A stretch of 41,214 bases of DNA from Candidatus Methylomirabilia bacterium. Its GTDB lineage: Bacteria; Methylomirabilota; Methylomirabilia; Rokubacteriales; CSP1-6. Below are positions 6,518 to 34,900 of this stretch, piece after piece. The position numbers were made by a program, and so were the translations under genes. The stretch's first letter is position 1; each line of letters opens with the position of its first letter. The stretch lies in NCBI GenBank assembly GCA_041476345.1, contig JBGOTH010000001.1, positions 1 to 41,214 of the forward strand, in the 5' to 3' direction. Under the pieces are notes generated by a model. It made no database searches, was not told the DNA's origin, and worked only from the letters and a program-made list of their open reading frames with translations.

Positions 6518-6548
6518 TGGGGGCGGCGGCGCCCCAGGTGAGGTAGCC
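6518..6548. promoter_or_regulatory. GGGG-N8-CCCC+AGGTGAGG dyad upstream of P4
   Basis: Reads TGGGGGCGGCGGCGCCCCAGGTGAGGTAGCC. The CCCC starts 88 bp upstream of the P4 GG. Confidence 0.5.
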
Positions 6549-6619
6549 ACGCCGCTATTCATCGCGCGCTCGGCGCGCGCGCATCCCTCATCTGCGCGAT
6601 TTGTCTCTCGAAGCGCCGG

Positions 6620-6634
6620 GGTATGCCCATTGCA
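6620..6634 (+). promoter_or_regulatory. sigma-54 promoter P4 (Leu/Glu-type dehydrogenase)
   Basis: Reads GGTATGCCCATTGCA with GG-N10-GC exact. The -12 TTGCA is perfect; the -24 is weaker (GGTAT). Confidence 0.55.
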
Positions 6635-6682: not shown

Positions 6683-7804
6683 ATGAGCCTCGACGACGTT
6701 TTCGACGTTGCGGACGAGCTCGGTCCCTCGAAGATCATCCACGTCAGCGAGCCGACACTCGGGCTCAAAGCGGTGCTGGTCGTCGACAACGTCGCGCGCG
6801 GCCCGTCGATTGGCGGCCTTCGGATGGCGCCTGACGTGAGCACGACCGAGTGCGTCCGTCTCGCGCGGGCGATGACGCTGAAGAACGCCGCCGCCAACCT
6901 GCCTCACGGCGGCGGCAAGTCAGTGCTCTACGGCGACCCGCGCATGCCGCGCGACCGGAAGGAGCGCCTCATTCGCGGGTTCGCGCACGCCCTCCGGAAC
7001 GAGACGGACTACATCTTCGGTCCCGACATGGGCACCGACGAGGCGTGCATGGCGTGGGTCGAGGACGAGATCGGCCGCGCCGTCGGCCTGCCGGCCGCGC
7101 TCGGCGGCATTCCGCTCGACGAGATCGGGGCAACCGGCTGGGGCGTCCTCCACGCGGTGGAGACCGCGGCGTCCCATTGCAGGTTCGACCTCAAGGGCGC
7201 GCGCGTGGTGATCCAGGGCTTCGGGGCCGTCGGCAAGCACAGCGCGCGATTCCTGGTCGAACGCGGCGCGGTGCTCGTCGCGGCATCGGATTCTCGAGGG
7301 ACGATCTACGACCCAGGCGGGATTCGCGTGGCGGAGCTGATCGCGCTGAAGGCCGCCGGCGGCGCCGTCGGAGACTATGCGAGCGGCGGCGAGAAGCTCG
7401 ATCGCGATGCGGTGCTCGATGTGGAATGTGAGATCTGGATCCCTGCCGCCCGCCCCGATGTGGTGCGCGAGGACAACGTGGACCGTTTGAAGACCAGGCT
7501 GGTCGTCCAGGGCGCCAATATTCCATTCACGCCGGGCGCGGAGAAGATGCTGCACGACCGGGGCGTCCTGGTGATTCCCGATTTCATCGCGAACGCCGGC
7601 GGCGTCATCTGCGCCGCGATGGAGTACCACGGCGCGACGCAATCGGCGGCCTTCGCCGCGATCGAGGAGAGAACCCGCGCGAATACCACGGCGGTCCTCG
7701 ACGCGATGAAGGCCGAGAACGTCACGCCGCGTCGGGCCGCGCTCGATCTGGCGACCGCGCGCGTCAGAGAGGCGATGAGCTACCGCCGTTTCTCGATCTC
7801 CTGA
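6683..7804 (+). CDS. Glu/Leu/Phe/Val dehydrogenase family protein (LeuDH/ValDH-sized)
   Basis: 373 aa with GPSIGGLRM, the catalytic-Lys box LPHGGGKSV and the Rossmann motif IQGFGAVGK. Confidence 0.85.
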   Translation: MSLDDVFDVADELGPSKIIHVSEPTLGLKAVLVVDNVARGPSIGGLRMAPDVSTTECVRLARAMTLKNAAANLPHGGGKSVLYGDPRMPRDRKERLIRGFAHALRNETDYIFGPDMGTDEACMAWVEDEIGRAVGLPAALGGIPLDEIGATGWGVLHAVETAASHCRFDLKGARVVIQGFGAVGKHSARFLVERGAVLVAASDSRGTIYDPGGIRVAELIALKAAGGAVGDYASGGEKLDRDAVLDVECEIWIPAARPDVVREDNVDRLKTRLVVQGANIPFTPGAEKMLHDRGVLVIPDFIANAGGVICAAMEYHGATQSAAFAAIEERTRANTTAVLDAMKAENVTPRRAALDLATARVREAMSYRRFSIS

Positions 7805-7814
7805 CGCTACTCGC

Positions 7815-7840
7815 TGGGGCGCGGCGACCCCACGTGAGAC
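7815..7840. promoter_or_regulatory. GGGG-N8-CCCC+ACGTGAGAC dyad upstream of P5
   Basis: Reads TGGGGCGCGGCGACCCCACGTGAGAC. The CCCC starts 100 bp upstream of the P5 GG. A near-identical copy is at 12301-12326. Confidence 0.5.
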
Positions 7841-7926
7841 GTGCACGCAGCACTCGCACGGCTCGGCGTTGTCGCCGTTTCCAGCTCGCACCAAGCAATT
7901 TCGCGGAATTGCCCCGCTCGACTGAT

Positions 7927-7942
7927 TGGCATTGACGATGCA
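7927..7942 (+). promoter_or_regulatory. sigma-54 promoter P5 (PRTase-esterase operon)
   Basis: Reads TGGCATTGACGATGCA with GG-N10-GC exact. The SD AAGGGGGG and the TTG/GTG start at 7969/7972 follow. Confidence 0.65.
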
Positions 7943-7968
7943 CCCATTCCCAGGCGAAAGGGGGGATC

Positions 7969-9981: not shown

Positions 9982-10071
9982 ATGAATTCCCTCGCGATCC
10001 CCTTGGGAGAATGTCACAGGTGATCGCGGCATCGTCCTGTTCGCTCACGGCAGCGGCAGCAGCCGCTTGAG
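9982..10071 (+). pseudogene. dienelactone-hydrolase gene remnant (5' scrap only)
   Basis: 10022-10071 matches the intact DLH gene at 12766-12815 in 48 of 50 nt (encoding GDRGIVLFAHGSGSSRL). The stop/start junction 9963-9985 matches 12654-12676 in 21 of 23 nt. The ATG at 9982 runs into a stop at 10021-10023, and about 53 nt are missing relative to the intact copy. Nothing DLH-like follows 10071. Confidence 0.8.
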
Positions 10072-11500: not shown

Positions 11501-11530
11501 GGTGAAGCTCACCCCAGGTGAGGCAGCCAC
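11501..11530. promoter_or_regulatory. CCCCAGGTGAGGCAGCCAC element upstream of P7 (left half replaced by GGTGA-AGC-TCACC)
   Basis: Reads GGTGAAGCTCACCCCAGGTGAGGCAGCCAC. The CCCC starts 88 bp upstream of the P7 GG. It is collinear with the P4 copy at a constant offset of 4980 nt. Confidence 0.45.
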
Positions 11531-11598
11531 GCCGCTGGTGATCGCGCCGTCGACGCGGGGCGTCTTCTCATCTGCGCGATTTGTCTCACGCGGCACCC

Positions 11599-11614
11599 AG
11601 GCAGGCCTGTTGCA
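11599..11614 (+). promoter_or_regulatory. sigma-54 promoter P7 (CDF-like transporter)
   Basis: Reads AGGCAGGCCTGTTGCA with GG-N10-GC exact. The leader to the ATG at 11644 is about 19 nt. Confidence 0.6.
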
Positions 11615-11643
11615 CTCCATGGGGACATGACGATTCACGGCTG

Positions 11644-12282
11644 ATGCCGATCCTCGAAACGGAAGGTCTCACGCGACCCGAGCATCACCACATCGAGGCG
11701 CCCCGCGTCGCCATCGCCCTTGCGATCACTCTCCTCGCCGCCGCCGGGGAGCTGGCAGGCGCGCGCAGTGCGGGCAGCCTGTTTCTCACCGCCGACGCCG
11801 TGCACCTCGTCGCCCATATCGGCATCTTCGCCGTCCTCCTGATTCCGCGCGGTCGATGGCATGGCGCCGAGGAAGACGTGGCGACGGCCGGTGTCCTCGC
11901 GCTCGTCGCGCTGATCGCCACGGCAATCACCGCCGCCTCGATCAATGCCGTGCTCTTCGCCAACCACGGCGCGCCCGCGCCGGCCTTCCTCTTGCTGTCC
12001 CTCCTCGGGCTCGGCGCGAACGTCGCGACCGCCTGGCTGTTTCGGACCCCCGCCGCATCCCGCTGGTCATTTCGTGCGGCGCTCGCTCACGAGCTCGCCG
12101 ATGGAATGATCACTGTCGCGGGACTCGCCGGCGCGCTGCTCATCAGACTCTTTGGGTGGTGGTGGATCGACCCGGGTCTGTCGCTCGCGATCGGGGTATG
12201 GCTCGACGTCTGGGCGCTCCGCCTCGTCCGACTCCGAATCCGGCACGGGGCGAGCGCGTGGACGATCGACGACGGCGTCTGA
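11644..12282 (+). CDS. cation diffusion facilitator (CDF)-like membrane protein lacking the cytosolic C-terminal domain
   Basis: 212 aa with 5-6 hydrophobic helices. CDF-like metal-site motifs TADAVHLVAH and AHELADG are present. The start is taken at ATG 11644, because track start 11581 lies inside the promoter. Confidence 0.6.
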   Translation: MPILETEGLTRPEHHHIEAPRVAIALAITLLAAAGELAGARSAGSLFLTADAVHLVAHIGIFAVLLIPRGRWHGAEEDVATAGVLALVALIATAITAASINAVLFANHGAPAPAFLLLSLLGLGANVATAWLFRTPAASRWSFRAALAHELADGMITVAGLAGALLIRLFGWWWIDPGLSLAIGVWLDVWALRLVRLRIRHGASAWTIDDGV

Positions 12283-12300
12283 GACGTCGGGCGCTCGCGT

Positions 12301-12326
12301 TGGGGCGCAATGACCCCACGTGAGAC
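12301..12326. promoter_or_regulatory. GGGG-N8-CCCC+ACGTGAGAC dyad upstream of P8
   Basis: Reads TGGGGCGCAATGACCCCACGTGAGAC. The CCCC starts 98 bp upstream of the P8 GG. It is a duplicate of 7815-7840. Confidence 0.5.
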
Positions 12327-12410
12327 GCGGGCGCAACACTCGTGCGGATCGGCCTCTCACACCTTCCGGCGCACGTCACGCGGTTTTGCCCAATTACGCG
12401 GGTAACCGCG

Positions 12411-12426
12411 TGGCATTAACGATGCA
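12411..12426 (+). promoter_or_regulatory. sigma-54 promoter P8 (DLH / Cys-rich / FAAL / MFS operon)
   Basis: Reads TGGCATTAACGATGCA, 15 of 16 nt identical to P5, with GG-N10-GC exact. The SD AAGGGGG and the ATG at 12454 follow. Confidence 0.65.
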
Positions 12427-12453
12427 CCTCCCTGCGGCGCAAGGGGGCGCGAT

Positions 12454-12665
12454 ATGGACGCACTCGTCGGCATCGCCAGATCCGGGTACATCGAGGGACG
12501 GCAACGTCGGGAGCGTGCGCTGGATTTCGCAGGTGTCGCCTTCGGCGTGGGATTGGGCACGGCGCTATGGCTCATCCTCGCGGCGGTCGCTCGCCTCATC
12601 GGATGACACCGGTGGCGTTCGAGGTCGCTCGTGCGGAAAGACGGTCATCGACATCCTCGCTGTGA
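12454..12665 (+). pseudogene. collapsed remnant of a PRTase + esterase gene pair
   Basis: The start context is homologous to the PRTase start. 12609-12635 matches PRTase 8083-8109 in 23 of 27 nt (PVAFE[VI]ARA). 12636-12653 matches 8341-8358 in 15 of 18 nt (GKTVI). 12654-12665 matches the esterase end (SSL-stop). About 2 kb has been reduced to about 210 nt, spread over different frames. A 50-codon ORF (12454-12606) with a TM-like tail is open here but may be fortuitous. Confidence 0.65.
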
Positions 12666-12672
12666 GACGACG

Positions 12673-13347
12673 ATGACCCCTCTCCCGTACGCCGCCGACG
12701 TCCCGGAAGTCGAGATCCCTGCGGACGATGTCTCCCTTCACGGAAACCTCGCGACCCGGCCGGGCGATCGCGGCATCGTCCTGTTCGCGCACGGGAGCGG
12801 CAGCAGCCGCTTGAGCGGTCGCAATCGTTACGTCGCGCGCGCGCTCGAGAACGCGGGGTTCTCGACCCTGCTCTTCGATCTCCTGACGAGGGACGAGGAG
12901 CGCGTGGACGAGATGACGCGCGCGTTGCGGTTCGACATCGAGATGCTCGCGCGCCGCCTCGTCGCCGTCACGGACTGGATCTCGGCGCGGCCGGACACGC
13001 GACACATGTCCGTCGGCTATTTCGGAGCCAGCACGGGCGCGGCCGCCGCGCTGATCGCCGCCGCCGAACGCCCGGGGGTCGTGGCCGCCGTCGTGTCGCG
13101 CGGAGGACGTCCCGATCTTGCCGCGCGTGCGCTTCGGAACGTGAAGGCGCCGACGCTGCTCATCGTCGGGAGTCTCGACGTGCCGGTCATCGCGATGAAC
13201 CGGAGCGCGCTCGACGCGCTCACCACCGAGAAAAAACTGGAGATCGTGGCGGGTGCCAGCCATCTCTTCGAGGAGCCTGGAACACTGCAGATCGTCGCCC
13301 GTCTCGCGAGCGACTGGTTCCACCGACACCTGGGCGTTCCACGATGA
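12673..13347 (+). CDS. dienelactone hydrolase-family alpha/beta hydrolase
   Basis: Contains GIVLFAHGSGSSRLS.RN, the nucleophile elbow GYFGASTGAAAA, and VVSRGGRPDLA...LLIVGSLD...GASHLFEEPG. The start is taken at ATG 12673. Confidence 0.85.
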   Translation: MTPLPYAADVPEVEIPADDVSLHGNLATRPGDRGIVLFAHGSGSSRLSGRNRYVARALENAGFSTLLFDLLTRDEERVDEMTRALRFDIEMLARRLVAVTDWISARPDTRHMSVGYFGASTGAAAALIAAAERPGVVAAVVSRGGRPDLAARALRNVKAPTLLIVGSLDVPVIAMNRSALDALTTEKKLEIVAGASHLFEEPGTLQIVARLASDWFHRHLGVPR

Positions 13348-13625
13348 GCTACACCTGCGGCCATCCCGAGCGGGCGCACGTGGGCGGTGGACGCTGCCGT
13401 GTTCCCGATTGTCCGTGCGAGCGGGTCGAGCCGGGCGACACCATCGCGCGGGAGTTTGCCGTCACCAGTGCCCACACTCCGGCGCATGTCGAGCGCGCGG
13501 TGATCCCCATGCTGAAGAACTCCACCTATGACCTCATGGAAACCGCCGCCGTCCTCTCGAAGGGTCGGCACGACCTCAAGGCGCACTTCGCCGGCGAAGG
13601 CGACGTGAAGATCGCCGCTTCCTAG
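13344..13625 (+). CDS. 93-aa chimeric ORF: Cys/His-rich N-terminal module fused to a Kbl C-terminal fragment plus an unknown tail
   Basis: ATGA overlap with the DLH stop. The third codon position is strongly G/C. Nt 13344-13445 are roughly 80% identical to the small ORF at 18105-18206. 13470-13503 matches the kbl 3' end 21626-21659 in 30 of 34 nt (AHTPAH[VL]ERAV). Confidence 0.6.
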   Translation: MSYTCGHPERAHVGGGRCRVPDCPCERVEPGDTIAREFAVTSAHTPAHVERAVIPMLKNSTYDLMETAAVLSKGRHDLKAHFAGEGDVKIAAS

Positions 13626-13641
13626 TCACCCACGGCGCGTC

Positions 13642-16491
<2,850 letters not shown>

Positions 16492-17907: not shown

Positions 17908-17948
17908 AGCTCTTCGGGCCAAGCCTGTGTTCACGCGTACTTCTGGAT

Positions 17949-17964
17949 CGGTCTCGCTCTTGCT
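17949..17964 (+). promoter_or_regulatory. possible sigma-54 promoter P11 (CBS-fragment/Cys-rich/baeRF1/tdh/kbl/ATPase operon)
   Basis: Reads CGGTCTCGCTCTTGCT with GG-N10-GC exact and a perfect -12 TTGCT, but the -24 has only the GG. The leader to the ATG at 17995 is about 20 nt and carries a GGGAG SD. Confidence 0.35.
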
Positions 17965-17994: not shown

Positions 17995-18105
17995 ATGAAC
18001 GTTGAGGACATCATGACGGCGGACGTGATCACCGTAGGGCCCGAGGAATCCGTCGACAACCGTCTGATCGCCGGTGTCGGTCTCGCCCACACGTACGGCG
18101 CCTGA
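17995..18105 (+). CDS. 36-codon ORF = N-terminal fragment of a CBS domain
   Basis: MNVEDIMTADVITVGPEESVDN is a canonical CBS-domain start, but the ORF stops after 36 codons. Its TGA overlaps the next ATG (TGATG). It is likely a gene remnant kept as a coupling leader. Confidence 0.45.
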   Translation: MNVEDIMTADVITVGPEESVDNRLIAGVGLAHTYGA

Positions 18106-18257
18106 TGAACTGCATTTGCGGCCATCCGGAGCGCGCCCATGCAGGCAGCGGGCGCTGTCGCGTTCCCGATTGTCCCTGCGAGCGGTTTGAGCCGGGCGAC
18201 ACCATCAAAGACATCGATCCACGGCGCGATCGCAACACCCGCGCTGCGCCGCCTTGA
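18105..18257 (+). CDS. 50-aa Cys/His-rich small protein (MNCICGHPERAHAGSGRCRVPDCPCERFEPGDTI...)
   Basis: Below the ORF-track size cutoff; found by hand. It is a paralog of the N-terminus of 13344-13625. It sits 13 nt upstream of the baeRF1 gene. The conserved C-x-C-G-H-x4-H-x5-C-x4-C-x-C pattern suggests metal binding. Confidence 0.55.
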   Translation: MNCICGHPERAHAGSGRCRVPDCPCERFEPGDTIKDIDPRRDRNTRAAPP

Positions 18258-18270
18258 AGAGAGGATACGG

Positions 18271-19440
18271 ATGAGCGACACAGGGGCCGGCACGGCCGCA
18301 TCGACGACGTTCGACATCGCCGCCAAGCTCCAGCAACTCGCGCGGCTGGCACCGGGGCGAGCGCCGGTGATCAGCGTCTATCTCGATACGCGCTGGACCG
18401 ACGAGCATCAACGCGAGCGCGTGCGTGTCTTCCTGAAGAACGAGACGCGCAAGGCCGCCGCCATGGCCGCCGGTCGACTCGAGGACGAGCTCGCGTGGAT
18501 CGCCGCGCAGGGCGAGCGGCTCGTTCGCCAGGAGTTCCATCCCGACGCGGCCGGCGTGGCGATGTTCGTCGGAGGGTCGGGAGATATGCGCGAGATCCTA
18601 TCCTTCGCCGTCCCGTTCACCGACACATTCACGATGGCCGATATCCCGCGGTTGCGGCCGCTGGTGGCCGCGCTCGGCGAGGCGCCGCGGGCGGCCGTGC
18701 TGTTCGTCGACGGTGAGAGCGCACGTGTCATCGCGTTGACCGAGCAAGGCGCCGCGGATGAGATCGCGTTGGAGACGACCGACGTGATCGGTCAGCATCG
18801 CCGCGGCGGCTGGCTGCTGCTCCTGCAGTCGCGCTACCAGCGCCACATCCACGAACTCCGCAAGCGTCACTTCGACGCCGTGGCCGATGCGCTTGCCGCC
18901 GCCGTCGACCACTACGGTCTTCGGGCCATCGTGCTCGCCGGTGAGGCGCGGAACCTCGCCGTCTTCCGGACACAAGTCCCGCCGCGGCTGGCGGGACGGA
19001 TCGTCGGCAACGTGGCGGGCGCGCGCTACGAGCCCTCGAGCGTGCTCGCAGAGCGCGCGCTTGCGCTGATCCGGCACCGGAACGCCGGCGAAGAGGCAGC
19101 GGCTCTCGACTCCGTCCTGGTCGACGCGGAAGGAGGCGGACGCGCGTCCGCCGGCGTCGATGCCACGGTCGACGCCGTCAACCGCGGCACGGTCGATCGT
19201 CTCTATCTGCTGCAGACCTACGAGGAGGATGGGCGAGTGTGCTCCCGTTGCCACGCGCTCCAGCGTGCCGCGACGGCCGTCTGCCAATGGTGCAGCGCCG
19301 TGACGAATCCGATGGAGCTCGGTGAAGCGATGGTCCGGTGCGTCCTTGCCGCCGACGGCGACGTCGCGAGCGTGGACGGGCACGAGGGGCTCGCGCGCGT
19401 AGGAGGCGTGGCGGCGCTCCTCCGCTACCCGCCTCGCTGA
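18271..19440 (+). CDS. bacterial eRF1-like protein (baeRF1 / Vms1-like peptidyl-tRNA hydrolase superfamily) with C-terminal zinc ribbon
   Basis: 389 aa from ATG 18271 (SD GAGAGGA). It has a central IGQHRRGGW....SRYQR block like the hkqGGwSq.RyqR motif of bacterial aeRF1 homologs. CSRC...CQWC forms a zinc ribbon near the C-terminus. Confidence 0.6.
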   Translation: MSDTGAGTAASTTFDIAAKLQQLARLAPGRAPVISVYLDTRWTDEHQRERVRVFLKNETRKAAAMAAGRLEDELAWIAAQGERLVRQEFHPDAAGVAMFVGGSGDMREILSFAVPFTDTFTMADIPRLRPLVAALGEAPRAAVLFVDGESARVIALTEQGAADEIALETTDVIGQHRRGGWLLLLQSRYQRHIHELRKRHFDAVADALAAAVDHYGLRAIVLAGEARNLAVFRTQVPPRLAGRIVGNVAGARYEPSSVLAERALALIRHRNAGEEAAALDSVLVDAEGGGRASAGVDATVDAVNRGTVDRLYLLQTYEEDGRVCSRCHALQRAATAVCQWCSAVTNPMELGEAMVRCVLAADGDVASVDGHEGLARVGGVAALLRYPPR

Positions 19441-19457: not shown

Positions 19458-20510
19458 ATGGCGCGCAGACCCGTAGCCCTGGTGACGGGCGCCGGCGGCG
19501 AGATGGGACATGCGCTCGTGCGCTGCCTCGCCCGGACGGGCGATGTCGACGTCCTCGCCCTCGACGTTCGCGCGCTCGATCCGGAGCTCGCCCGCCATTG
19601 CGTCGCCGTGCGAGTCGGCGACATCCTCGATCGGCGTCTGCTCGACCGGCTCACGAGCGAGTTCGAGATCGCCACGATCTTCCATCTCGCCGCGCTGCTG
19701 TCGACCCGCGCCGAGTTCGTGCCCGAAACCGCGCACGAGGTAAACGTGGATGGAACGCTGAACCTGCTGCGGCTCGCCGTCGAGGAGGCGCGCGCGCTGG
19801 GGCGTCCGGTGACGTTCCTCTTCCCCAGCTCGATCGCCGTCTACGGCCTGCCTGACGTGCCGACCAAGCGTGCGGTGGGCCGAGTGGGCGAGCACGAGTG
19901 GACGACGCCCGTCACCATGTACGGCTGCAACAAGCTCTACTGCGAGCACCTGGGCCGCTACTTCGGTCGTCACTACCGCCAGCTCGCGCCCCAGGCCGGG
20001 CCGAGCGGCGTCGACTTCCGCGCGATCCGCTTCCCGGGACTCATTTCGGCCTTCACCATGCCGAGCGGCGGCACCAGCGACTACGCGCCGGAGATGATCC
20101 ACGCCGCGGCCCAGGGCCGGCCTTACACCTGCTTCGTGCGGGCCGACACCCGGATTCCGTTCATGGCGATGCCGGACGCGATCGACGCGCTCCTGACCCT
20201 GCTGCGGGCACCGGCGGCATCGCTGACGAGCGCCGTGTACAACGTGACGGGATTCTCTGCGAGCGCGGGTGAGCTGGCCGATCTCGTGCGCGAGGCGTTT
20301 CCCGGAGCGCGAATCACGTTCGCGCCCGATCCCCGCCGTCAGGCCATCGTCGATTCCTGGCCCCAAGATGTGGACGACGCGCGTGCGCGCCGCGACTGGG
20401 GCTTTCGGGCCGCGCACGACCTCCAGCGCACGTTCGACGAGTACCTTCTCCCGAACGTCAGGCGCCGATATGCCGCGGCGGGCGTCGAGAGGGATTCAAA
20501 GGAGGCATGA
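19458..20510 (+). CDS. tdh: L-threonine 3-dehydrogenase (GalE-like extended SDR type)
   Basis: Contains the TGAGGEMG Rossmann motif, catalytic YGCNK, the DSWP motif, and [11 protein letters not shown]. It overlaps kbl as ATGA. Confidence 0.8.
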
Positions 20511-21700
20511 CGATGTACGGCGAGATCGTCAAGCAGCGACTCGCGGCCGAGCTCGACGAGATGGAGGCGACGGGACTGCTCAAGAGCGAGCGGGTCCTCC
20601 AGGGACCGCAGGGTCCCGAGGTCACGGTCGGCGGCCGGACGGTCCTCAATTTCTGCGCCAACAACTATCTCGGCCTCGCCGACGACCCGGCACTCGTCCA
20701 CGCCGCCCAGGATGGGCTCGCCCGCTGGGGCTTCGGGCTCGCCAGCGTGCGGTTCATCTGCGGCACTCAGACCATTCACAAGGAGCTCGAGGAGGCCATC
20801 GCCGGCTTCCTCGGCACCGACGACGTCATCCTCTACACGTCCTGCTTCGACGCCAACGGCGGCCTCTTCGAGACGCTGCTCGGGGAGGGCGACGTCGTGA
20901 TCTCCGACGCCCTCAACCACGCCTCGATCGTCGACGGCATCCGCCTCTGCCGCGCGGAACGCCACCGCTACGCGCACGGTGACATGGCCGACCTGGAGCG
21001 CATCCTCGCGGCGACGCGCGGCGCGCGCACGCGGCTCATCGCCACCGACGGCGTGTTCTCGATGGACGGCGACGTCGCACCCCTGGCGGAGATCTGCGAT
21101 CTCGCCGACCGCTACGACGCCCTCGTGATGGTGGACGACAGCCATGCCACCGGCTTCTTCGGTCCCACCGGGCGTGGGACGCCGGAGCATTGCGGCGTCC
21201 AGGCGCGCGTGGACATCATCACGTCGACTCTGGGCAAGGCGCTCGGCGGAGCCAGCGGCGGCTTCACGGCCGCGCGGCGCGAGATCGTTGCCATCCTGCG
21301 GCAGCGCTCGCGCCCCTACCTCTTCTCGAACACGCTGCCGCCCGCGCTCGTCTGCGCGTCCCTGGCCTGCCTCGAGCTGCTCGCGCGGTCGTCGATGCGG
21401 CGTGACGTGCTCGCCGCAAACACGCGGTGGTTTCGTGCAGCGATGACGGCCGCCGGCTTCGCCATTCGCCCCGGCGTCCATCCGATCGTCCCGATCGTGC
21501 TGGGCGACGCCCGCCTCGCCCAGCAGATGGCCGGCGATCTCCTGGAAGAGGGCATCTACGTCGTCGGCTTCTCCTATCCCGTCGTCCCCAGGGACGCGGC
21601 GCGCATCCGCGTGCAGCTCAGCGCCGCCCACACGCCGGCCCATCTCGAGCGCGCGGTCACGGCGTTCGTGAAAATCGGCCGCGTCCGTGGTGTCGTTTGA
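20507..21700 (+). CDS. kbl: glycine C-acetyltransferase (2-amino-3-ketobutyrate CoA ligase)
   Basis: Contains [29 protein letters not shown] and the PLP-Lys block [14 protein letters not shown]. The C-terminus reads [13 protein letters not shown]. Confidence 0.9.
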
Positions 21701-28983: not shown

Positions 28984-31900
28984 GTGGCATCCGGTGGCAA
29001 GGGCGTTCGGCTCGCCGAACGCCTGCGCGGCCCGCAGGAAGCCCTCGAGGCCACGTATCGACGTCTCGCTGGAGGCGCCCCGGGCGCGGATCGACCTGCG
29101 GCGGAGTGGCTGCTCGACAACTACTACATCGTCGAGCGGGCCTTCCAACTGGTTCGGGAGGAGTTCCCGCCCGCGTTCGAGCACCGTCTCCCGCCCAGTG
29201 CTCCCGGTCCGCTGCTCGGTTTCCCCGTGAGCTATGCACTGGCTCAGGAAATCGTCACCGCCGGCGCCCAGCTCGTCGAGGTAGACACGATCGTACGGGT
29301 CGTCGAGGAATTCCAAACCGTCCGCACTCTATCGGTGGCGGAGGTCTGGGCACTGCCCGTGCTCCTCCGCATCGTGCTGCTCGAGTCCCTGGCATCCGCC
29401 GTCTCCATCGCACTCCCCGAGGAGAGAGCCGCGGGGGAAACGGCGGGGGACCGGATCGTCGCGGCCTGCATCCGCAGTCTGCACACCCTCGAGACCACCG
29501 ATTGGAGAGTGTTCTTCGAAAGGGTCAGCGAGATCGAGCGGATCCTCCGCGAGGACCCGGCCGGCGCGTACGCCCGGATGGACTTCGAGACGCGCGATCG
29601 CTACCGCAAGGTCGTGGAAGAACTGGCCGCGCGCAGCGACTGGTCCGAGGAAGCCGTCGCGCGCGAGGCTGTCGAGCGGTCGCGGAAAGGCATGGACGGC
29701 CGTCGCGGCCATGTCGGCTACCACCTCATCGACGGCGGCTCCGAGGCGCTCGGTCACGCGGTCGGCTACCGTCCCCGTTGGGGAACGCGATGGCGTCGCT
29801 TCCTTCTGCGTCACCCGACGCCGTGGTACCTCGGCGCGATCGCCGTGGTTGCCGTGGTTCATCTGGTGGCGCTGGGCATGGCGCTACTCGCTACGGGAAC
29901 CGCGTCTGTCGTTATCGCTGCAGGGCTGGTGCTGGCCCTCGTCCCCGCCGCGACCATCGCCGTAAGTGTCGTGAACCGTCTCGGGACGCGTGTCGTCCCG
30001 GTGCGCGTTCTGCCCAAGCTGGACTTCCGCGAGGGCCTCCCCATCGATTGCCGAACCATGATCGTCGTCCACGCCATCCTCTCGCCGGAAGACGATATCG
30101 CGCCACTGCTGTCGCGGCTCGAGGTTCACGGGCTCGCCAGCGCCGACGCCAATCTCCATCTCGCCCTGCTCGTCACGCTCGCGGACGCGCCCGAGGAATC
30201 GATGCCGGGTGACGTCGATCTGCTACGACGGCTCGAAGCAGGCGTGCGCGCGCTGAATGCAAAGTACGGGCACGGCGCCAGCGGCCCGTTTCACGTGTTG
30301 CATCGAAGGCGACTGTGGAACCCCGGTGAGGGGTGCTGGATGGGCTGGGAGCGCAAGCGCGGCCAGCTCGCCGAGTTCAACCGCCTGCTCGCCGGCGACC
30401 ATCGGACCAGCTTTGCGACGCACGTCGGCGATGCGAGCTTCCTTTCGACGACCCGGTTCGTGATCACCCTGGACACGGACACCGAGCTCCCCCGTGGCGC
30501 GGCCCGCCGCCTCGTCGCCACCCTCGCGCATCCCCTCAACCGGGCCGAGATCGAGACCGGGACGGGTCGCGTGACCGCCGGCTACACGGTCCTGCAGCCT
30601 CGGATGGAAGTGACGCCCTCGGGCGCCGCCTCGTCGCTCTCGCGCCTCTTCGCGGGGGACCCCGGCTTCGATCTCTACGCCCGCGCGTCATCGGACGTGT
30701 ACCAGGACCTCTTCGGCGAGGGCGTCTACGTCGGCAAGGGGATCTACGACCCGGTGGCGTTCGAGGCGAGCCTGCGCGGGCGGGTGCCGGAGAACGCAAT
30801 CCTCAGTCACGACCTCTTCGAGGGAATTCACGGAAGAACGGCGCTGGTGACGGACGTCGTCCTCTTCGAGAACTACCCCGCCGACTACCGTAGTTACTGG
30901 CGACGTCTCCACCGCTGGGTCCGGGGAGACTGGCAATTGCTCCCGTGGCTCGGCCCCCGGGTACCCCTTGCGGCAGGCGGTCGCGCACCGAACCGACTGT
31001 CGCTGATCTCGCGTTGGAAGATCATCGACAACCTTCGCCGCACCTTGCTTCCGCCGACATTGCTCGCCTTCCTGCTCCTGGCATGGGTTGGGTTCCCCAG
31101 CTCGCCCGCCGTGTGGACGATGATCGCCGTCCTCGTGCTCGCGGCCCCGCTGCTCACGGAGGCGATGGGAGGTCTCCTCGCGGCGAATCGGGTGGCGGCC
31201 TTGCCTCCGGCCGTCCGGGGCGTGGTGCTGCGACTGCGGCCTGCGTCGGTGCTCTGGATCCTCCACATCGCCCTGCTCCCCCATCGCGCCGTCGTCCTGG
31301 CTGACGCCATTCTCCGCACGCTCGTCCGTCTGCGCCGGGGGCGCCGCCTTCTGGAATGGACGTCAGCGGCGCGCGTGGCACGCCTGCTGGTTGACACGGA
31401 GTCACGCCGACTGTTCTGGCGCGAAATGGTCACGGCTCCCATCATCGCAATCGGCACGCTGGTGCTGCTCGCGCTCTGTCGGCCGACCGCGCTTCCGGCC
31501 GCGCTTCCACTCGCGGCGCTCTGGCTCCTCGCTCCCGAAATCGCGGCGTTCGTCAGCCGGCCACGACGTCGGCGTGTGGCGGCGCTGTCGGAGGGCGATG
31601 CTCGACGCCTCCGTCTGCTGGCGCGCCGCACGTGGCTCTTCTTCGACAGGTTCGTGGGACCGGACGACCACTGGCTGCCACCTGATCACTTCCACGAGGA
31701 GCCGCGCGGTGAAGTCGCGCGGCGAACCTCGCCGACCAACATCGGACTCCTGCAACTCGCCACGCTGTCCGCGCACGATCTCGGTCACGCGGGTTTGCTG
31801 TCCGTGATCCTGCGCCTGCGGAACACGTTCGAGACGCTCGCACGCATGGAGCGCCACCGCGGCCACTTCTACAACTGGTACGACACACGCGATCTCTCTC

Positions 31901-34900
31901 CGCTGTCGCCCCGTTATGTCTCCACGGTCGACAGCGGAAATCTCGCCGCCTGTCTTTTGGTCGTGAAGCAGGCCTGTCGGGAGCTCGTCGGGGCCCCTGT
32001 CATCGGGCCTGCCCGATGGGATGGGCTGATCGACACGCTGGACATGCTGCCTCAGGTCATCGAGCGACGCGTTCGACAGGAGCACGCCGAGCGGTTCACC
32101 GCCCTTCGCACGTGCGTGGAGAAGATGCGCGCGGAGGCGATCGAGTTGAAGGCGGCGCGGCAGGCGTGGGGGCCCGGCATCGCCTCGCTCCTCGAGCGCG
32201 GCGGCACCGAGCTCGATCAGGCCGTTCTCGCGGCGATCGCGCAGGACGGCGCAGGCCTCGATTCCGATCTGCTCTCTGAGCTGCGCGTGTGGTCCGCCGA
32301 AGTGCCCCAGCACCTCGAGGCCATGTGGCGCGACGTCGAGCTCTGTCTTCCGTGGGAGGCGCCGGATGCCAGGCCACCTGTCGTGGGACCTGGAGACGTT
32401 CGCGAGGCGCTGGCGGAGACATGGACGGCGCTCGAGCGAAGCCTCCCCGTCGATCCCACGCTGAACGGGCTGCCCTCGACGTGCGAGACCGCCAGCGCCG
32501 GCCTGTCACGGCTCGAGAAGCAACTTGATGGGTCGCCCAACGACGCGGCGGGTCTGGCGGAAGCACGCGCCTGGGCAGAGCGCCTCCAGAAGGCGATCGC
32601 ACGGGCACGCGAGACCGCGCGCAGCATGCTGTCCACTCTCGATGTGCTCGCGGAACAGGCCGAGGCGCTCTTCGATGCGATGGACTTCACCTTCCTTTAC
32701 GACGAGGGACGACGACTCTTCTACATCGGCCACGATGTCACCGCGGATCGCCACGACGCTTACCACTACGACCTGCTCGCCTCCGAGGCGAGGCTGGCCA
32801 GCTTCATCGCCATCGCGAAGGGCGACGTCCCTGAAGAGCACTGGCTCCAGCTCGGCCGGCCGCTCGCTCGCGTGGACGGCGCGACCGCACTCCTCTCCTG
32901 GAACGGCACGATGTTCGAGTACCTGATGCCGACGCTGCTCTTGCGCGAAGCGCCGGACAGTCTGATGGGTCGAGCGTGCGTAGCCGCCGTGCAGACCCAG
33001 ATCGCATACGCCGGCCGTCATGGCGTGCCGTGGGGCATGTCGGAATCGGAGTACTACCGCTTCGACGCCCAGCGCAACTACCGGTACCGCGCCTTCGGCG
33101 TCCCTGATCTCGGCTTCAAGCGCGGGTTGGCGGACGACATCGTCGTCGCGCCGTATGCCTCCCTGCTCGCGTTGCCGTTTGCGCTACCGGCGGTGATGGC
33201 GAATCTCGACCGCCTGGACGAGCTCGGCGTCCTGGGACGCTACGGGCTCTACGAAGCCGTGGACTTCACGGCGTCACGTCTGGAGGCCGGGACGACCCAC
33301 GCCATCGTCCGCTCGTTCATGGCCCACCACCAGGGGATGATCCTCACGTCGATCAATAACCTGATCCACGACGCGCGCATGGTGCATCGCTTCCACGCCG
33401 ACGCCATCGTCAGAACGACGGAAACGCTCCTCTTCGAGCGTCCGGCCGTCGCGGCTCCGAAGACCCTGACGCGCCTCGTGCTCGCCATGCCTCGCCCTGC
33501 TCCACTCCGGCGAGCACCGCTCGCACCGTGGTCGGCGCGTTCCGGCACTGGCATTCCGCAGGCCCACGTGCTGTCGAACGGTCGCTATCGCGTCCTCGTC
33601 TCGGAAGGAGGCGGCGGCAGCGACTGGGGTGCCGTGGCCCTCACGCGCTGGCAGGCTGACCGCACGCTCGACGGCCCCGGCTTCCGTGTGTACCTTCGCG
33701 ATCTCGACCGCCGACTCTCCTGGTCTGTGACGCCCGGTGACGGCGAGCTGGTGTTCCACGCGCACATGGTCGAGCGGCGTCAGCGCGTCCACGACATCGC
33801 GCTTCACGAGCAGGTCTGCGTGGCGCCGGACGATGACATCGAAGTCCGGCTGGTGACGCTGCGGAACCACACGGCCTCGCGGCGGCGGCTGGTCGTGACG
33901 AGCTACGCGGAGGTCGTGGTCGGTGACGCAGCCGAGGACCAGCGACATCCGGCGTTCAGCAAGCTGTTCGTCGAAAGCGAGTACGTCGACGACCTGCACG
34001 CGCTCGTGTTCCACCGCCGCCCGCCCTCGGCGCGAAAGCCCGACGCCTGGCTCGCCCACCTGTTGGTGCTCCCCTCCGCACGGGCGCGAGCGGCCGGTTA
34101 CGAAAGCTCGCGCGAGCGCTTCGTCGGCCGCGGAAGGACGGTGCGGCAGCCGGGCGCATTCGACCGAGACGAGCCGACCGGCGCGGGAATGACGGGCGCG
34201 ACGCTCGATCCGATCATGGCGCTGTCGGCAGAGATCGAGCTCCCGGCGTATCACGCCGCGACGATCGGCTATGTGGTCCTGGCCGCCAATTCACGCGAGG
34301 ACGTCCTCGCCCTCGCGCGCCGCTATCGCTCGCTTCCGACCCTCGAGTGGAGCTTCGAGCTGGCGCGCCAGCGCAGCGAAGCCGAAGTCGCCGATCTGGC
34401 GCTCAGCTCGCAGGATCTCCCAGCGGTGGCGATGCTGCTCTCTCTTCTCCTGTACTCCCACGACGCCCTGCGAGCTCCCGCCGGGATCCTCGCCGCAAAC
34501 CGCCTCGGGCAACGCTCTCTGTGGAAGTACGCGCTCTCCGGAGACCTGCCGATCCTCCTCGTGCGTATCGGCTCCGCCGAGGACGCGGCGATCCTCTCTT
34601 CAGTGCTGCGCGCACACCGCTTCTGGCGAGGACGGGGCGTCTCCGTGGACGTGGTCATCCTGAACGAGCGGGCCGAAGGCTACCTGACCGAGACCGACGA
34701 TCACGTCAACCGTGCGATCACGCAGGCCGGTGCCGACGCCTGGCGCGATCGGCCGGGCGGCGTCTTCGTCATCCCGTCCGCTCGGATCGCGGAGGCCGAT
34801 CGCATCCTGCTCCTGTCGGCGGCGCGCGTCGTGCTGGACGGCACTCAGGGGAGCATCGGCCAGCAGCTCGCGCGTATGGGAGCCGAGCCGGCGAGACTAC

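What the first reader, a model, noticed from the sequence alone, without database searches (positions are those of the whole stretch)
13344..13625. Unrecognised Cys/His-rich small-protein module in two paralogous copies, one fused to a Kbl tail
Two ORFs start with nearly the same module. They are MSYTCGHPERAHVGGGRCRVPDCPCERVEPGDTI (13344) and MNCICGHPERAHAGSGRCRVPDCPCERFEPGDTI (18105, 50 aa, below the ORF-track cutoff). Nucleotide identity is roughly 80% over about 100 nt. The C-G-H-x4-H-x5-C-x4-C-x-C spacing suggests a small metal-binding knuckle, and I cannot assign it to a known family. After GDTI, the 13344 copy switches to ...SAHTPAHVERAV, which matches the kbl 3' end (13470-13503 versus 21626-21659, 30 of 34 nt). 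In the second locus the order is Cys-ORF, baeRF1, tdh, kbl. The 93-aa ORF therefore looks like the product of a roughly 3.4-kb deletion joining the Cys-ORF to the end of kbl. The junction may sit at a PGD/PRD microhomology. The ORF remains open, has G/C-rich third positions and is translationally coupled (ATGA) to DLH.
Basis: partly seen in the sequence, partly recalled or inferred. Interest (0 to 1): 0.7.

Follow-up and report, generated by a model that had tools for sequence, protein, structure and literature searches.

The report
Mosaic ORF starting with unannotated Cys/His mini-domain
The 93-codon reading frame is a patchwork of three gene fragments left by deletions in a stress-gene island of an uncultured soil bacterium (Rokubacteriales), and its first 34 residues belong to a real, conserved, so far unnamed cysteine/histidine-rich mini-domain that probably binds metal.

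Summary
Window 13343-13445 and 18104-18206 are the longest direct repeat in the window (103 nt, 83%), and both copies encode M-x-C-x-CGHPERAH-x5-C-x4-CPCE-x-F-x-PGDT.

The module is protein-coding: in 14 loci, 32 of 34 third codon positions vary, against 16-19 of 34 at positions 1 and 2. It defines a family with no Pfam, NCBIfam, PHROG, PDB-sequence or Foldseek match. The family has about 80 clusters among 1.84 billion representative proteins, and all nine genome hits are Rokubacteria/Methylomirabilota MAGs.

Most family members are small free ORFs: 47 of 53 complete ORFs are 28-132 aa, median 66. Their tails are unconserved: pairwise identity is 0.76 over aa 1-34 and 0.14 over aa 35-50. Others are the N-terminal domain of TM-HtrA/PDZ proteases. 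baeRF1 is not an obligate neighbour.

The 93-aa ORF is a three-part mosaic:
- the module;
- a significant in-frame relic of the kbl 3' end (29/32 nt);

The deletion origin is supported. The PGD/PRD junction is not. The biochemical function of the module, probably metal binding, is inferred only.

The parts
12631..13347 (+). Dienelactone-hydrolase-family gene. Its TGA stop overlaps the ATG of the mosaic ORF (ATGA).
   Evidence: Pfam DLH E 4.6e-10; sequence.
13344..13625 (+). The 93-aa mosaic ORF, the finding itself.
   Evidence: The same protein is found on 6 contigs.
13344..13445 (+). Copy A of the 34-aa Cys/His module (MSYTCGHPERAHVGGGRCRVPDCPCERVEPGDTI). It carries Y at the near-invariant C3 and V at the near-invariant F28.
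   Evidence: Repeat D1; family alignments A3 and A4; codon-position test.
13446..13469 (+). 24-nt linker with no detectable source.
   Evidence: No match in the window or in the loci.
13470..13503 (+). In-frame relic of the 3' end of a kbl gene (..SAHTPAHVERAV..).
   Evidence: 29/32 nt to 21626-21657, 40.1 bits against a shuffle maximum of 34.2; BLASTP E 8e-6.
13509..13625 (+). Relic of a 72-aa small-protein gene (fam72: MLKNSTYDLMETAAVLSKG...HFAGE...). It has a 105-nt in-frame internal deletion between about 13565 and 13572, and its own ribosome-binding site is lost.
   Evidence: 93% over 57 nt plus 90% over 31 nt to the L010 gene; 35-residue gap in tblastn; alignment showing loss of AGGGAGGAG; conserved fam72->AMP-ligase adjacency.
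13642..16491 (+). PP-binding/AMP-ligase/acyltransferase gene, a frequent neighbour of the module.
   Evidence: Pfam; within 4 kb of 13 of 72 module sites.
17929..17964 (+). Conserved upstream (promoter-region) motif of the CBS-BON/Cys operon.
   Evidence: Conserved in L002, L003, L010 and L022; unique in the window.
17995..18105 (+). 36-codon relic of a CBS+BON gene. It keeps its start codon and the TGATG stop/start overlap with copy B.
   Evidence: BLASTP to the L002 CBS-BON protein: aa 13-32 (E 6e-8) and aa 221-239 (E 4e-9); Pfam CBS E 0.0067.
18105..18257 (+). Copy B, a 50-aa free-standing member of the module family (module at 18105-18206). It was never called as a gene in public data.
   Evidence: Orthologues are L002 (92/102 nt) and L022 (same KDIDPRRDRN tail, 49 aa). 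It is absent from the protein collection.
18271..19440 (+). baeRF1-type gene, related to the Balon/Rv2629/MSMEG_1130 ribosome hibernation factors.
   Evidence: Pfam baeRF_family10, 72.7 bits against a cutoff of 27.1. NCBIfam NF052288 and NF052289, E 1e-17 but below their cutoffs.
19458..20510 (+). NAD-dependent epimerase-fold gene, a tdh-like partner of kbl.
   Evidence: Pfam Epimerase E 7.7e-27.
20507..21700 (+). kbl-type class I/II aminotransferase gene. 21626-21659 is the stretch matched by the relic.
   Evidence: Pfam Aminotran_1_2 E 9.3e-62.

Best explanation
**What the ORF is (shown).** ORF 13344-13625 is a mosaic of three pieces, all in one frame:
1. An intact copy of a 34-residue Cys/His-rich domain.
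2. A relic of about 32-40 nt from the 3' end of a kbl gene.
3. An internally deleted relic of a 72-aa small gene (fam72), lying at its native position upstream of the AMP-ligase/acyltransferase gene.

**How it arose (inferred).** The ancestral operon, kept intact in relative L010, reads fam72 -> AMP-ligase/acyltransferase -> CBS-BON -> Cys mini-ORF -> Balon-like baeRF1 -> tdh -> kbl. In the window's lineage a second, older Cys..kbl block lay upstream of fam72, behind the DLH gene. That block lost its interior (about 2.2-3.4 kb). A further event removed the last codons of kbl and the fam72 ribosome-binding site.

**What the module is.**
- Shown: it is a genuine protein domain under purifying selection. 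It starts at its own ATG. It occurs mostly as small free ORFs (28-132 aa, median 66) with junk tails. It also occurs as the N-terminal domain of TM-anchored HtrA/PDZ proteases; that this domain faces the cytoplasm is inferred from the predicted membrane anchor.
- Inferred: its invariant or near-invariant C3, C5, H7, H12, C18, C23 and C25 chelate metal. Zn is the most likely metal; a redox-sensitive or Fe-S site is possible. It acts as a small interaction or sensor domain inside a hypoxia/dormancy-type gene neighbourhood (CBS-BON, M50+CBS peptidase, USP, P-type ATPase, Balon).

**How it is translated (inferred).** Copy B is the regular member. It is translated by stop/start coupling (TGATG) from the CBS-BON reading frame, which survives here only as a 36-codon relic. 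Copy A is probably still translated by ATGA coupling to DLH, but only its first 34 residues are likely to matter.
For: **Repeat and coding signature**
- Searches show the repeat.
- In 14 loci, variable columns at codon positions 1/2/3 are 19/16/32 of 34. Synonymous versus non-synonymous codon differences are 929:817 in frame, against 182:1600 and 247:1516 in the other two frames.

**Family size and spread**
- 20 hits in the first search.
- 9 genome loci, all Rokubacteria/Methylomirabilota MAGs.
- 80 clusters in 1.84 billion representatives.
- 57 metagenome loci.

**Domain boundary and architectures**
- Pairwise identity is 0.76 over aa 1-34 and 0.14 over aa 35-50.
- Module-TM-Trypsin_2-PDZ proteins are confirmed by Pfam in L007, L063, L074 and P0095. 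Indels in the linker keep the frame.

**The three pieces and the ancestral operon**
- kbl relic.
- fam72 relic.
- Ancestral operon order in L010, and partial versions in L002 and L009.

**Age and reality of the mosaic**
- Copy A is 84/102 nt identical to each of copy B, L002, L003 and L005, whereas copy B is 92/102 to L002. Copy A is therefore an old paralogue.
- The mosaic is reproduced in independent assemblies.

**Coupling and neighbourhood**
- Coupling relics upstream of the module.
- Neighbourhood counts.
- Relation of the downstream gene to Balon: and PMC10901736.
Against: - No metal binding, translation or transcription has been measured.
- AlphaFold2 models are of low confidence (pLDDT 64.6 and 60.8, pTM 0.30), and Foldseek found nothing. 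The fold is therefore unknown.
- No relative with an intact DLH-Cys-..-kbl-fam72 arrangement was found. The progenitor of copy A is reconstructed, not observed.
- fam72 is not next to kbl in any other locus examined.
- 15-24 nt at the first junction are unexplained.
- Copy A carries Y at C3 and V at F28, so even its module may be under relaxed constraint.
- The neighbourhood counts include redundant contigs from related populations.
Confidence: 0.7

Rival explanations
1. The 93-aa ORF is a new, selected fusion protein in which the tail (Kbl-like segment plus fam72 halves) has a function of its own.
For: - Both junctions and the internal fam72 deletion are in frame, and the ORF stays open.
- The start overlaps the DLH stop.
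- The identical protein occurs in several samples, and the one SNP inside the ORF is synonymous.
- Six of the seven candidate ligand positions in the module are intact.
Against: - No orthologue of the chimera exists among 5.8 billion clusters; only the ORF itself matches over its full length.
- The fam72 part has lost the central 35 residues, which include that family's conserved C-x2-C.
- The Kbl piece is about 12-19 residues taken from a 397-aa PLP enzyme.
- In 69% G+C DNA, ORFs stay open by chance.
- In this family the tails after residue 34 are generally unconserved.
- The samples carrying the ORF are about 99.8% identical strains, so they say little about selection.
Confidence: 0.15
2. 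The kbl-like stretch is not a relic of a deleted gene block. It is either chance similarity or short 'filler' DNA copied from the resident kbl gene during repair of an unrelated break.
For: - The match is only 32-34 nt long.
- 15-24 nt beside it have no source.
- No relative shows kbl next to fam72.
Against: - The score of 40.1 bits exceeds all 300 shuffles (maximum 34.2), and only 1% of real 63-mers reach it.
- The match keeps the Kbl reading frame.
- It is 9% diverged from the resident kbl, which argues against a recent templated copy.
- The two relics are exactly the two ends of the Cys..kbl operon segment, and they lie in the right order and orientation.
Confidence: 0.08
3. The conserved 102 nt are not a protein domain. 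They are a regulatory leader (uORF), or an RNA or DNA element that controls the downstream genes.
For: - The element always sits at the 5' end of whatever follows it.
- Tails are unconserved.
- It is often coupled by overlapping stop/start codons to neighbouring ORFs.
Against: - Third-codon-position variation with invariant Cys/His residues points to a protein.
- The downstream gene differs from locus to locus or lies on the other strand.
- The element forms real in-frame domain fusions to HtrA/PDZ proteases that are conserved across 50%-identical proteins.
- There is no Rfam match at E<=1.
Confidence: 0.04
4. The mosaic is a mis-assembly of a metagenome contig.
For: The window comes from a MAG and holds several short paralogous pieces.
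Against: - The same junctions occur in an NCBI MAG and in two independent Logan assemblies of different runs.
- The paralogous pieces are 83-94% identical, not identical, so they would not collapse in assembly.
Confidence: 0.02

Closest known systems
Short Cys/His zinc-binding motifs of bacteria: SEC-C motif (C-x-C-x8-C-[CH]), ZAS anti-sigma motif (H-x3-C-x2-C), SWIM (C-x-C-xn-C-x-H). These are quoted from my own knowledge.
   Same: It is a 25-35-residue stretch dominated by invariant Cys and His with a C-x-C element. It lies N-terminal to a predicted membrane anchor in the HtrA fusions, and so is presumably cytoplasmic, as ZAS domains are in anti-sigma factors.
   Different: The spacing is C-x-C-G-H-x4-H-x5-C-x4-C-x-C, with seven candidate ligands. 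No Pfam or NCBIfam model of any kind matches at E<=1. There is no PDB sequence match and no fold match. Net charge is about -1, so it does not look like a nucleic-acid binder.
Balon/Rv2629/MSMEG_1130 stress operons (PMC10901736)
   Same: Copy B lies between a CBS-domain gene relic and a baeRF1 gene related to Balon. The paper reports Balon genes in stress-response operons and, in mycobacteria, near the CBS protein Hrp1.
   Different: The paper describes no small Cys/His ORF in those operons. The module has Balon within 4 kb at only 7 of 72 sites. The NCBIfam hits of the window protein are far below the family cutoffs.
DosR-type hypoxia/dormancy regulon of Mycobacterium tuberculosis (from my own knowledge: Rv2625c M50+CBS, Rv2626c Hrp1, Rv2629, USPs, CtpF, Rv0571c DLH, Rv0574c CapA-like)
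   Same: The same kinds of genes surround the module: M50+CBS peptidase, CBS-BON, USP, P-type ATPase, DLH, PGA_cap, RtcA-type cyclase and Balon-like.
   Different: The phylum is different. No DosR regulator or verified DosR box was shown here. This is a resemblance of gene content only.
Fusion ORFs and pseudogenes created by interstitial deletion
   Same: The two ends of a gene block are joined in frame. A neighbouring gene is also truncated, and short direct repeats (..TCAAG) lie at the fam72 deletion.
   Different: The 5' piece is a complete small domain that normally works with an arbitrary tail. The 'relic' may therefore still deliver a functional module.

Membership tests
Any curated protein family (Pfam-A, NCBIfam, PHROGs) | A significant HMM match | tested here: not met
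   There are 0 Pfam families for both window ORFs at E<=0.01. There are 0 at E<=1 for copy B and five other members: P0003, P0049, P0088, P0092 and P0094. There are 0 NCBIfam families at E<=1. PHROGs gives only E 0.03-0.1 hits to families of unknown function.
Any solved structure | Sequence or fold similarity to a PDB chain | tested here: not met
   Profile searches with A3 and A4 give a best E of 0.84-4.8, to cyclotides and triosephosphate isomerase, which is noise. Foldseek against the PDB gives 0 matches, but the model is of low confidence.
The CxCGH mini-domain family defined here (A4) | Own start codon, then C3, C5, G6, H7, H12, G16, C18, C23, C25, F/Y28, P30 within 34 residues | tested here: met
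   Copy B has all of these. Copy A has all except C3 (Y) and F28 (V). HMM scores are 82.6 bits for P0001 and E 5e-19.
The CxCGH mini-domain family defined here (A4) | Binds a metal through the conserved Cys/His | not testable with these tools
   This is inferred from the residue pattern only.
Kbl (2-amino-3-ketobutyrate CoA ligase, Aminotran_1_2) | PLP-dependent fold of about 360 residues | tested here: not met
   The 93-aa ORF has no Pfam hit. Only residues 40-58 align to Kbl residues 371-389.
fam72 (72-aa MLKNSTYDLMETAAVLSKG...C-x2-C...HLK-x-HF family, itself unannotated) | Full-length protein with the central C-x2-C segment | tested here: not met
   The window copy keeps residues 1-21 and the last approximately 17 residues, and lacks 35 central residues.
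Balon/Rv2629 ribosome hibernation factors (for the neighbour at 18271-19440) | baeRF1 fold; family-level HMM score | tested here: inconclusive
   Pfam baeRF_family10 scores 72.7 bits, above its cutoff of 27.1. NCBIfam NF052288 and NF052289 score 64 and 62 bits, far below their cutoffs of 480 and 320. Ribosome binding was not tested.

The most novel reading that the evidence does not exclude
The 34-residue module is a new autonomous metal- or redox-sensing switch of a Rokubacteriales dormancy-type regulon. In this reading it works in two forms. As an N-terminal fusion it gates membrane HtrA/PDZ proteases from the cytoplasmic side. As a free mini-protein it acts on partners encoded nearby (CBS-BON, M50+CBS site-2-type peptidase, Balon-type hibernation factor). 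The free form would be produced by termination-reinitiation from an upstream reading frame that selection keeps alive even after the CBS-BON gene itself has been deleted down to 5-36 codons.
Probability: 0.12. Interest if true: 0.7.

Novelty: new variant of a known kind. Interest (0 to 1): 0.4.

Why it matters
- **A missing family.** The finding adds a conserved, unannotated mini-domain to the catalogue of small Cys/His proteins. Gene callers mostly miss it or mis-extend it. Copy B, for example, is absent from a 15-billion-protein collection.
- **A place to look for function.** The module sits in the stress/dormancy gene neighbourhoods of an abundant but uncultured soil lineage, next to a Balon-type hibernation factor and proteases of the regulated-proteolysis type.
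- **A caution for annotation.** In high-G+C genomes, deletions leave long open mosaic ORFs that look like genes. Several such deletions occur in this one window.
- **Limits.** This is not a new mechanism, and its biochemical role is still a guess.

Tried and rejected
1. **An old, shared junction.** I first thought the tail shared by P0002, L005 and related ORFs (AAHATDVARALL..) was also Kbl-like, which would make the junction old and shared. BLASTP to Kbl is not significant (E 0.2, at another site) and blastn shows nothing. That tail is explained instead by read-through into the 3' end of a convergent M50+CBS peptidase gene.
2. **PGD/PRD microhomology junction.** Rejected. The module stays identical to copy B through GDTI, and the next 24 nt are unrelated to kbl in register.
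3. **kbl->fam72 adjacency in relatives.** Not found.
4. **Structure.** Two AlphaFold2 runs with 11 and 56 sequences gave pLDDT 64.6 and 60.8. Foldseek against the PDB was empty.
5. **Phage origin.** tblastn against 50,697 phage records gave one hit at E 0.3 and otherwise none.
6. **RNA element.** Rfam found nothing at E<=1 over 11-22 kb.
7. **Literature.** No paper contains the motif strings.
8. **Eukaryote-like hits.** P0072 and P0074 carry a repeated CGHPERKH..G.C..CY motif but match only residues 5-18 of the module. I did not count them as family members.
9. **Shared regulatory motif.** The motif upstream of CBS-BON (17929-17964) is unique in the window, so it is not shared between the two loci.
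Full report
**1.
- ORF 13344-13625 (93 aa) and ORF 18105-18257 (50 aa) begin with MSYTCGHPERAHVGGGRCRVPDCPCERVEPGDTI and MNCICGHPERAHAGSGRCRVPDCPCERFEPGDTI.
- The DNA repeat 13343-13445 / 18104-18206 is the longest in the window: 103 nt at 83%, E 2e-23 in self-blastn. It begins one base before the ATG and ends after GDTI.
- The kbl-like stretch is real. 13470-13501 matches 21626-21657 at 29/32 nt. No dinucleotide shuffle of the window produced a second match. It scores 40.1 bits, against a shuffle maximum of 34.2; 3 of 300 real 63-mers reach 40 bits. It keeps the Kbl frame (BLASTP E 8e-6 to Kbl residues 371-389).
- The same 93-aa product is encoded on six contigs, including NCBI GCA_041491405.1 and two independent Logan assemblies. 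The two compared base for base differ by 5 SNPs in 2282 nt. This excludes an assembly artefact.

**2. The module is a protein domain, not a DNA or RNA element.**
- Across 14 loci, variable columns at codon positions 1, 2 and 3 number 19, 16 and 32 of 34.
- Synonymous versus non-synonymous codon differences are 929:817 in frame, against 182:1600 and 247:1516 in the other two frames.
- Rfam finds nothing.

**3. It defines an unannotated family.**
- Pfam, NCBIfam and PHROGs give no significant hit for window copies or relatives.
- PDB profile searches return only noise.
- AlphaFold2 gives low-confidence models: pLDDT 64.6 and 60.8, with a short helix and a hairpin. Foldseek finds nothing.
- Homologues do exist. 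There are 11 module-bearing ORFs in the first search. There are 9 loci among 185,579 species-representative genomes, all Rokubacteria/Methylomirabilota MAGs. There are 57 metagenome loci. There are 80 clusters (28 at E<=1e-10) among 1.84 billion representative proteins.
- The wider consensus is M-x-C-x-C-G-H-P-E-x-x-H-x-x-G-G-R-C-R-V-P-D-C-P-C-E-x-F-x-P. H12, C18, C23 and C25 are invariant. C3, C5, G6, H7, G16 and P30 are present in at least 90% of sequences.

**4. Anatomy of family members.**
- Every copy starts at its own start codon. About half have a GGAGG-type site upstream. Nine of 57 have a TGATG overlap with the stop of an upstream ORF.
- Conservation collapses after residue 34: mean pairwise identity is 0.76 over aa 1-34 and 0.14 over aa 35-50.
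- Of 53 complete distinct ORFs, 25 are at most 60 aa, 22 are 61-135 aa, and 6 are 340-503 aa.
- Five of the six long ones are genuine architectures: module, linker, transmembrane segment, Trypsin_2, PDZ. They occur in L007, L063, L020/P0045 and L074/L075, and also in P0095 from the protein collection. The proteins are about 50% identical, and indels in the linker preserve the frame. The sixth, L004, reads into a formate/nitrite transporter.
- The 86-aa group (L005 and relatives) owes its conserved tail to antisense overlap with the 3' end of a convergent M50+CBS peptidase gene.
- The functional unit is therefore the 34-residue domain, and tails are mostly read-through.

**5. Neighbourhood.**
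- Within 4 kb of 72 module sites I found M50+CBS peptidase (21), PP-binding/AMP-ligase/acyltransferase (13), CBS-BON (10), USP (8), P-type ATPase (8), the Balon-like baeRF1 (7), tdh (6), HtrA fused (5) and GluDH (4). These counts include related contigs.
- The baeRF1 neighbour of copy B hits Pfam baeRF_family10 above its cutoff. It also hits the NCBIfam Rv2629 and MSMEG_1130 ribosome-hibernation-factor models, but below their cutoffs.
- The Balon paper reports such genes in stress operons and near the CBS protein Hrp1 in mycobacteria (PMC10901736).
- The rest of the window fits a stress/storage island: BON, isoamylase, LOG-like, GluDH, cation efflux, P-type ATPase and a CBS pair.
Where conserved, the arrangement is CBS-BON stop overlapping the Cys start (L002, L003, L010, L026, L051, and window copy B).

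**6. What the 93-aa ORF is.**
- It has three pieces. Residues 1-34 are the module. Residues about 40-53 are the Kbl relic.
The relic has a 35-codon in-frame deletion.
- At DNA level it is 93% (57 nt) and 90% (31 nt) identical to the intact gene of L010. It has lost that gene's AGGGAGGAG ribosome-binding site. Its deletion lies between short direct repeats (..TCAAG).
- L010 shows the intact operon: fam72 -> AMP-ligase/acyltransferase -> CBS-BON -> Cys -> baeRF1 -> tdh -> kbl. The fam72 relic in the window is therefore at its native site, directly upstream of the orthologous AMP-ligase gene (13642-16491).
- What lies upstream of it, the Cys module plus the kbl 3' end, is exactly the two ends of the Cys..kbl segment, in the right order and orientation.
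- The simplest history is a second Cys..kbl block between DLH and fam72 that lost its interior. The loss was 3.4 kb if the block resembled locus B, or about 2.2 kb if it lacked baeRF1 as in L002, L022 and L069. A second event joined the kbl relic to the fam72 start codon.
- Copy A is 84/102 nt identical to each of copy B, L002, L003 and L005, whereas copy B is 92/102 to its orthologue in L002. The duplication therefore predates these lineages.
- The proposed PGD/PRD microhomology is not supported. Identity to copy B runs through GDTI, and the next 24 nt match nothing.

**7. The window holds several further deletion relics.**
- The CBS-BON gene upstream of copy B is reduced to 36 codons: the N-terminal 20 plus the C-terminal 19 residues of the 239-aa L002 protein.
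- The close relative L022 keeps only MNVEDS*. Other lineages have 5-6-codon ORFs (MIGAR*, MATARG*) that end in ATGA on the module's start.
- In each case a start codon and the stop/start overlap survive. I read this, as an inference, as selection for translational coupling of the Cys ORF.
- A 53-nt orphan DLH fragment sits at 10019-10071.
- P0023 (module plus an internally deleted protease) and P0041 (acyltransferase fragment, CBS start and module in one frame) show similar mosaics in other metagenomes.

**8. Mechanism.**
- Shown: the module is a translated-type, strongly constrained 34-residue domain. It functions at the N-terminus either alone or ahead of a membrane anchor.
- Inferred: it binds metal through some of C3, C5, H7, H12, C18, C23 and C25. 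A structural Zn site is the most likely. With seven ligands, a binuclear or redox-sensitive site cannot be excluded.
- Its net charge of about -1 argues against nucleic-acid binding. An interaction or sensor role in a stress regulon is the best guess.
- Copy A probably still yields the module with a junk tail, or it is decaying (C3->Y, F28->V). The data do not decide between these.

**9. Verdict.** The module is a real new small-domain family of limited taxonomic range. That is useful for annotation and mildly interesting biologically, but it does not point to a new kind of system.

Noticed in passing
window 17995-18105; L022 ~600-630; L029/L005-type loci just upstream of the module: The CBS+BON gene upstream of the Cys ORF has been deleted down to 36 codons in the window and to 6 codons in L022. 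In other lineages 5-6-codon ORFs of uncertain origin lie at the same place. Each time a start codon and a stop overlapping the module's ATG are kept. This suggests that translational coupling is under selection.
   Followed up: partly
window 17929-17964: A conserved 36-nt motif, GTTCACGCGTACTTCTGGATCGGTCTCGCTCTTGCT, lies upstream of the CBS-BON/Cys operon. It is shared with L002, L003, L010 and L022 and is unique in the window. It is probably a promoter or operator.
   Followed up: partly
window 10019-10071: An orphan 53-nt fragment (GDRGIVLFAHGSGSSRL) of a DLH gene is 94% identical to 12763-12815. No rest of the gene lies around it. It is another deletion relic.
   Followed up: partly
window 6532-6634 / 11512-11614 and 7812-7964 / 12298-12447: Two pairs of similar non-coding flanks enclose different genes: GluDH at 6683-7804 and a cation-efflux protein at 11581-12282. 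The downstream pair contains the palindrome TGGGGCGC-N3-GACCCCA. By my recollection this resembles a DosR-type box at 14 of 20 positions. The second copy lies about 300 nt upstream of the DLH/copy-A genes.
   Followed up: partly
window 18105-18257 versus ORF 18139-19440: Copy B is absent from the 15-billion-protein collection, so it was never called as a gene. The long ORF 18139-19440 overlaps it in another frame. The real start of the baeRF1 gene is more likely 18271, which has GAGAGGA upstream.
   Followed up: partly
P0012-P0020; L010 2161-2376; L012 3661-3882; L013-L019: The 72-aa family (MLKNSTYDLMETAAVLSKGLHRY..C-x2-C..) has no Pfam or NCBIfam match either. Elsewhere it lies next to alpha-amylase/GH77 genes or near a GAF-PAS-HisKA_3 sensor kinase.
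   Followed up: partly
P0023, P0041 (metagenome proteins): Other mosaic ORFs start with or contain the module. P0023 is the module plus an internally deleted HtrA protease. P0041 has an acyltransferase fragment, the first residues of CBS and the module in one frame.
   Followed up: no
P0048-P0073 clade (SHCVCGHPEEAHLFGGRCRVPGCxCDRFWPIPEI): This is a second, more distant clade of the family, of unknown taxonomy. It again has variable tails and variable called N-termini. One contig (L021) shows only small unannotated ORFs around it.
   Followed up: no
P0072, P0074: Two long, low-complexity, eukaryote-like proteins carry many repeats of CGHP[ED]RKH-x3-G-x-C-x2-CY. These resemble only residues 5-18 of the module and are probably an unrelated zinc motif.
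   Followed up: no
window 28984-37362: A single 2792-aa ORF on the + strand was not examined.
   Followed up: no
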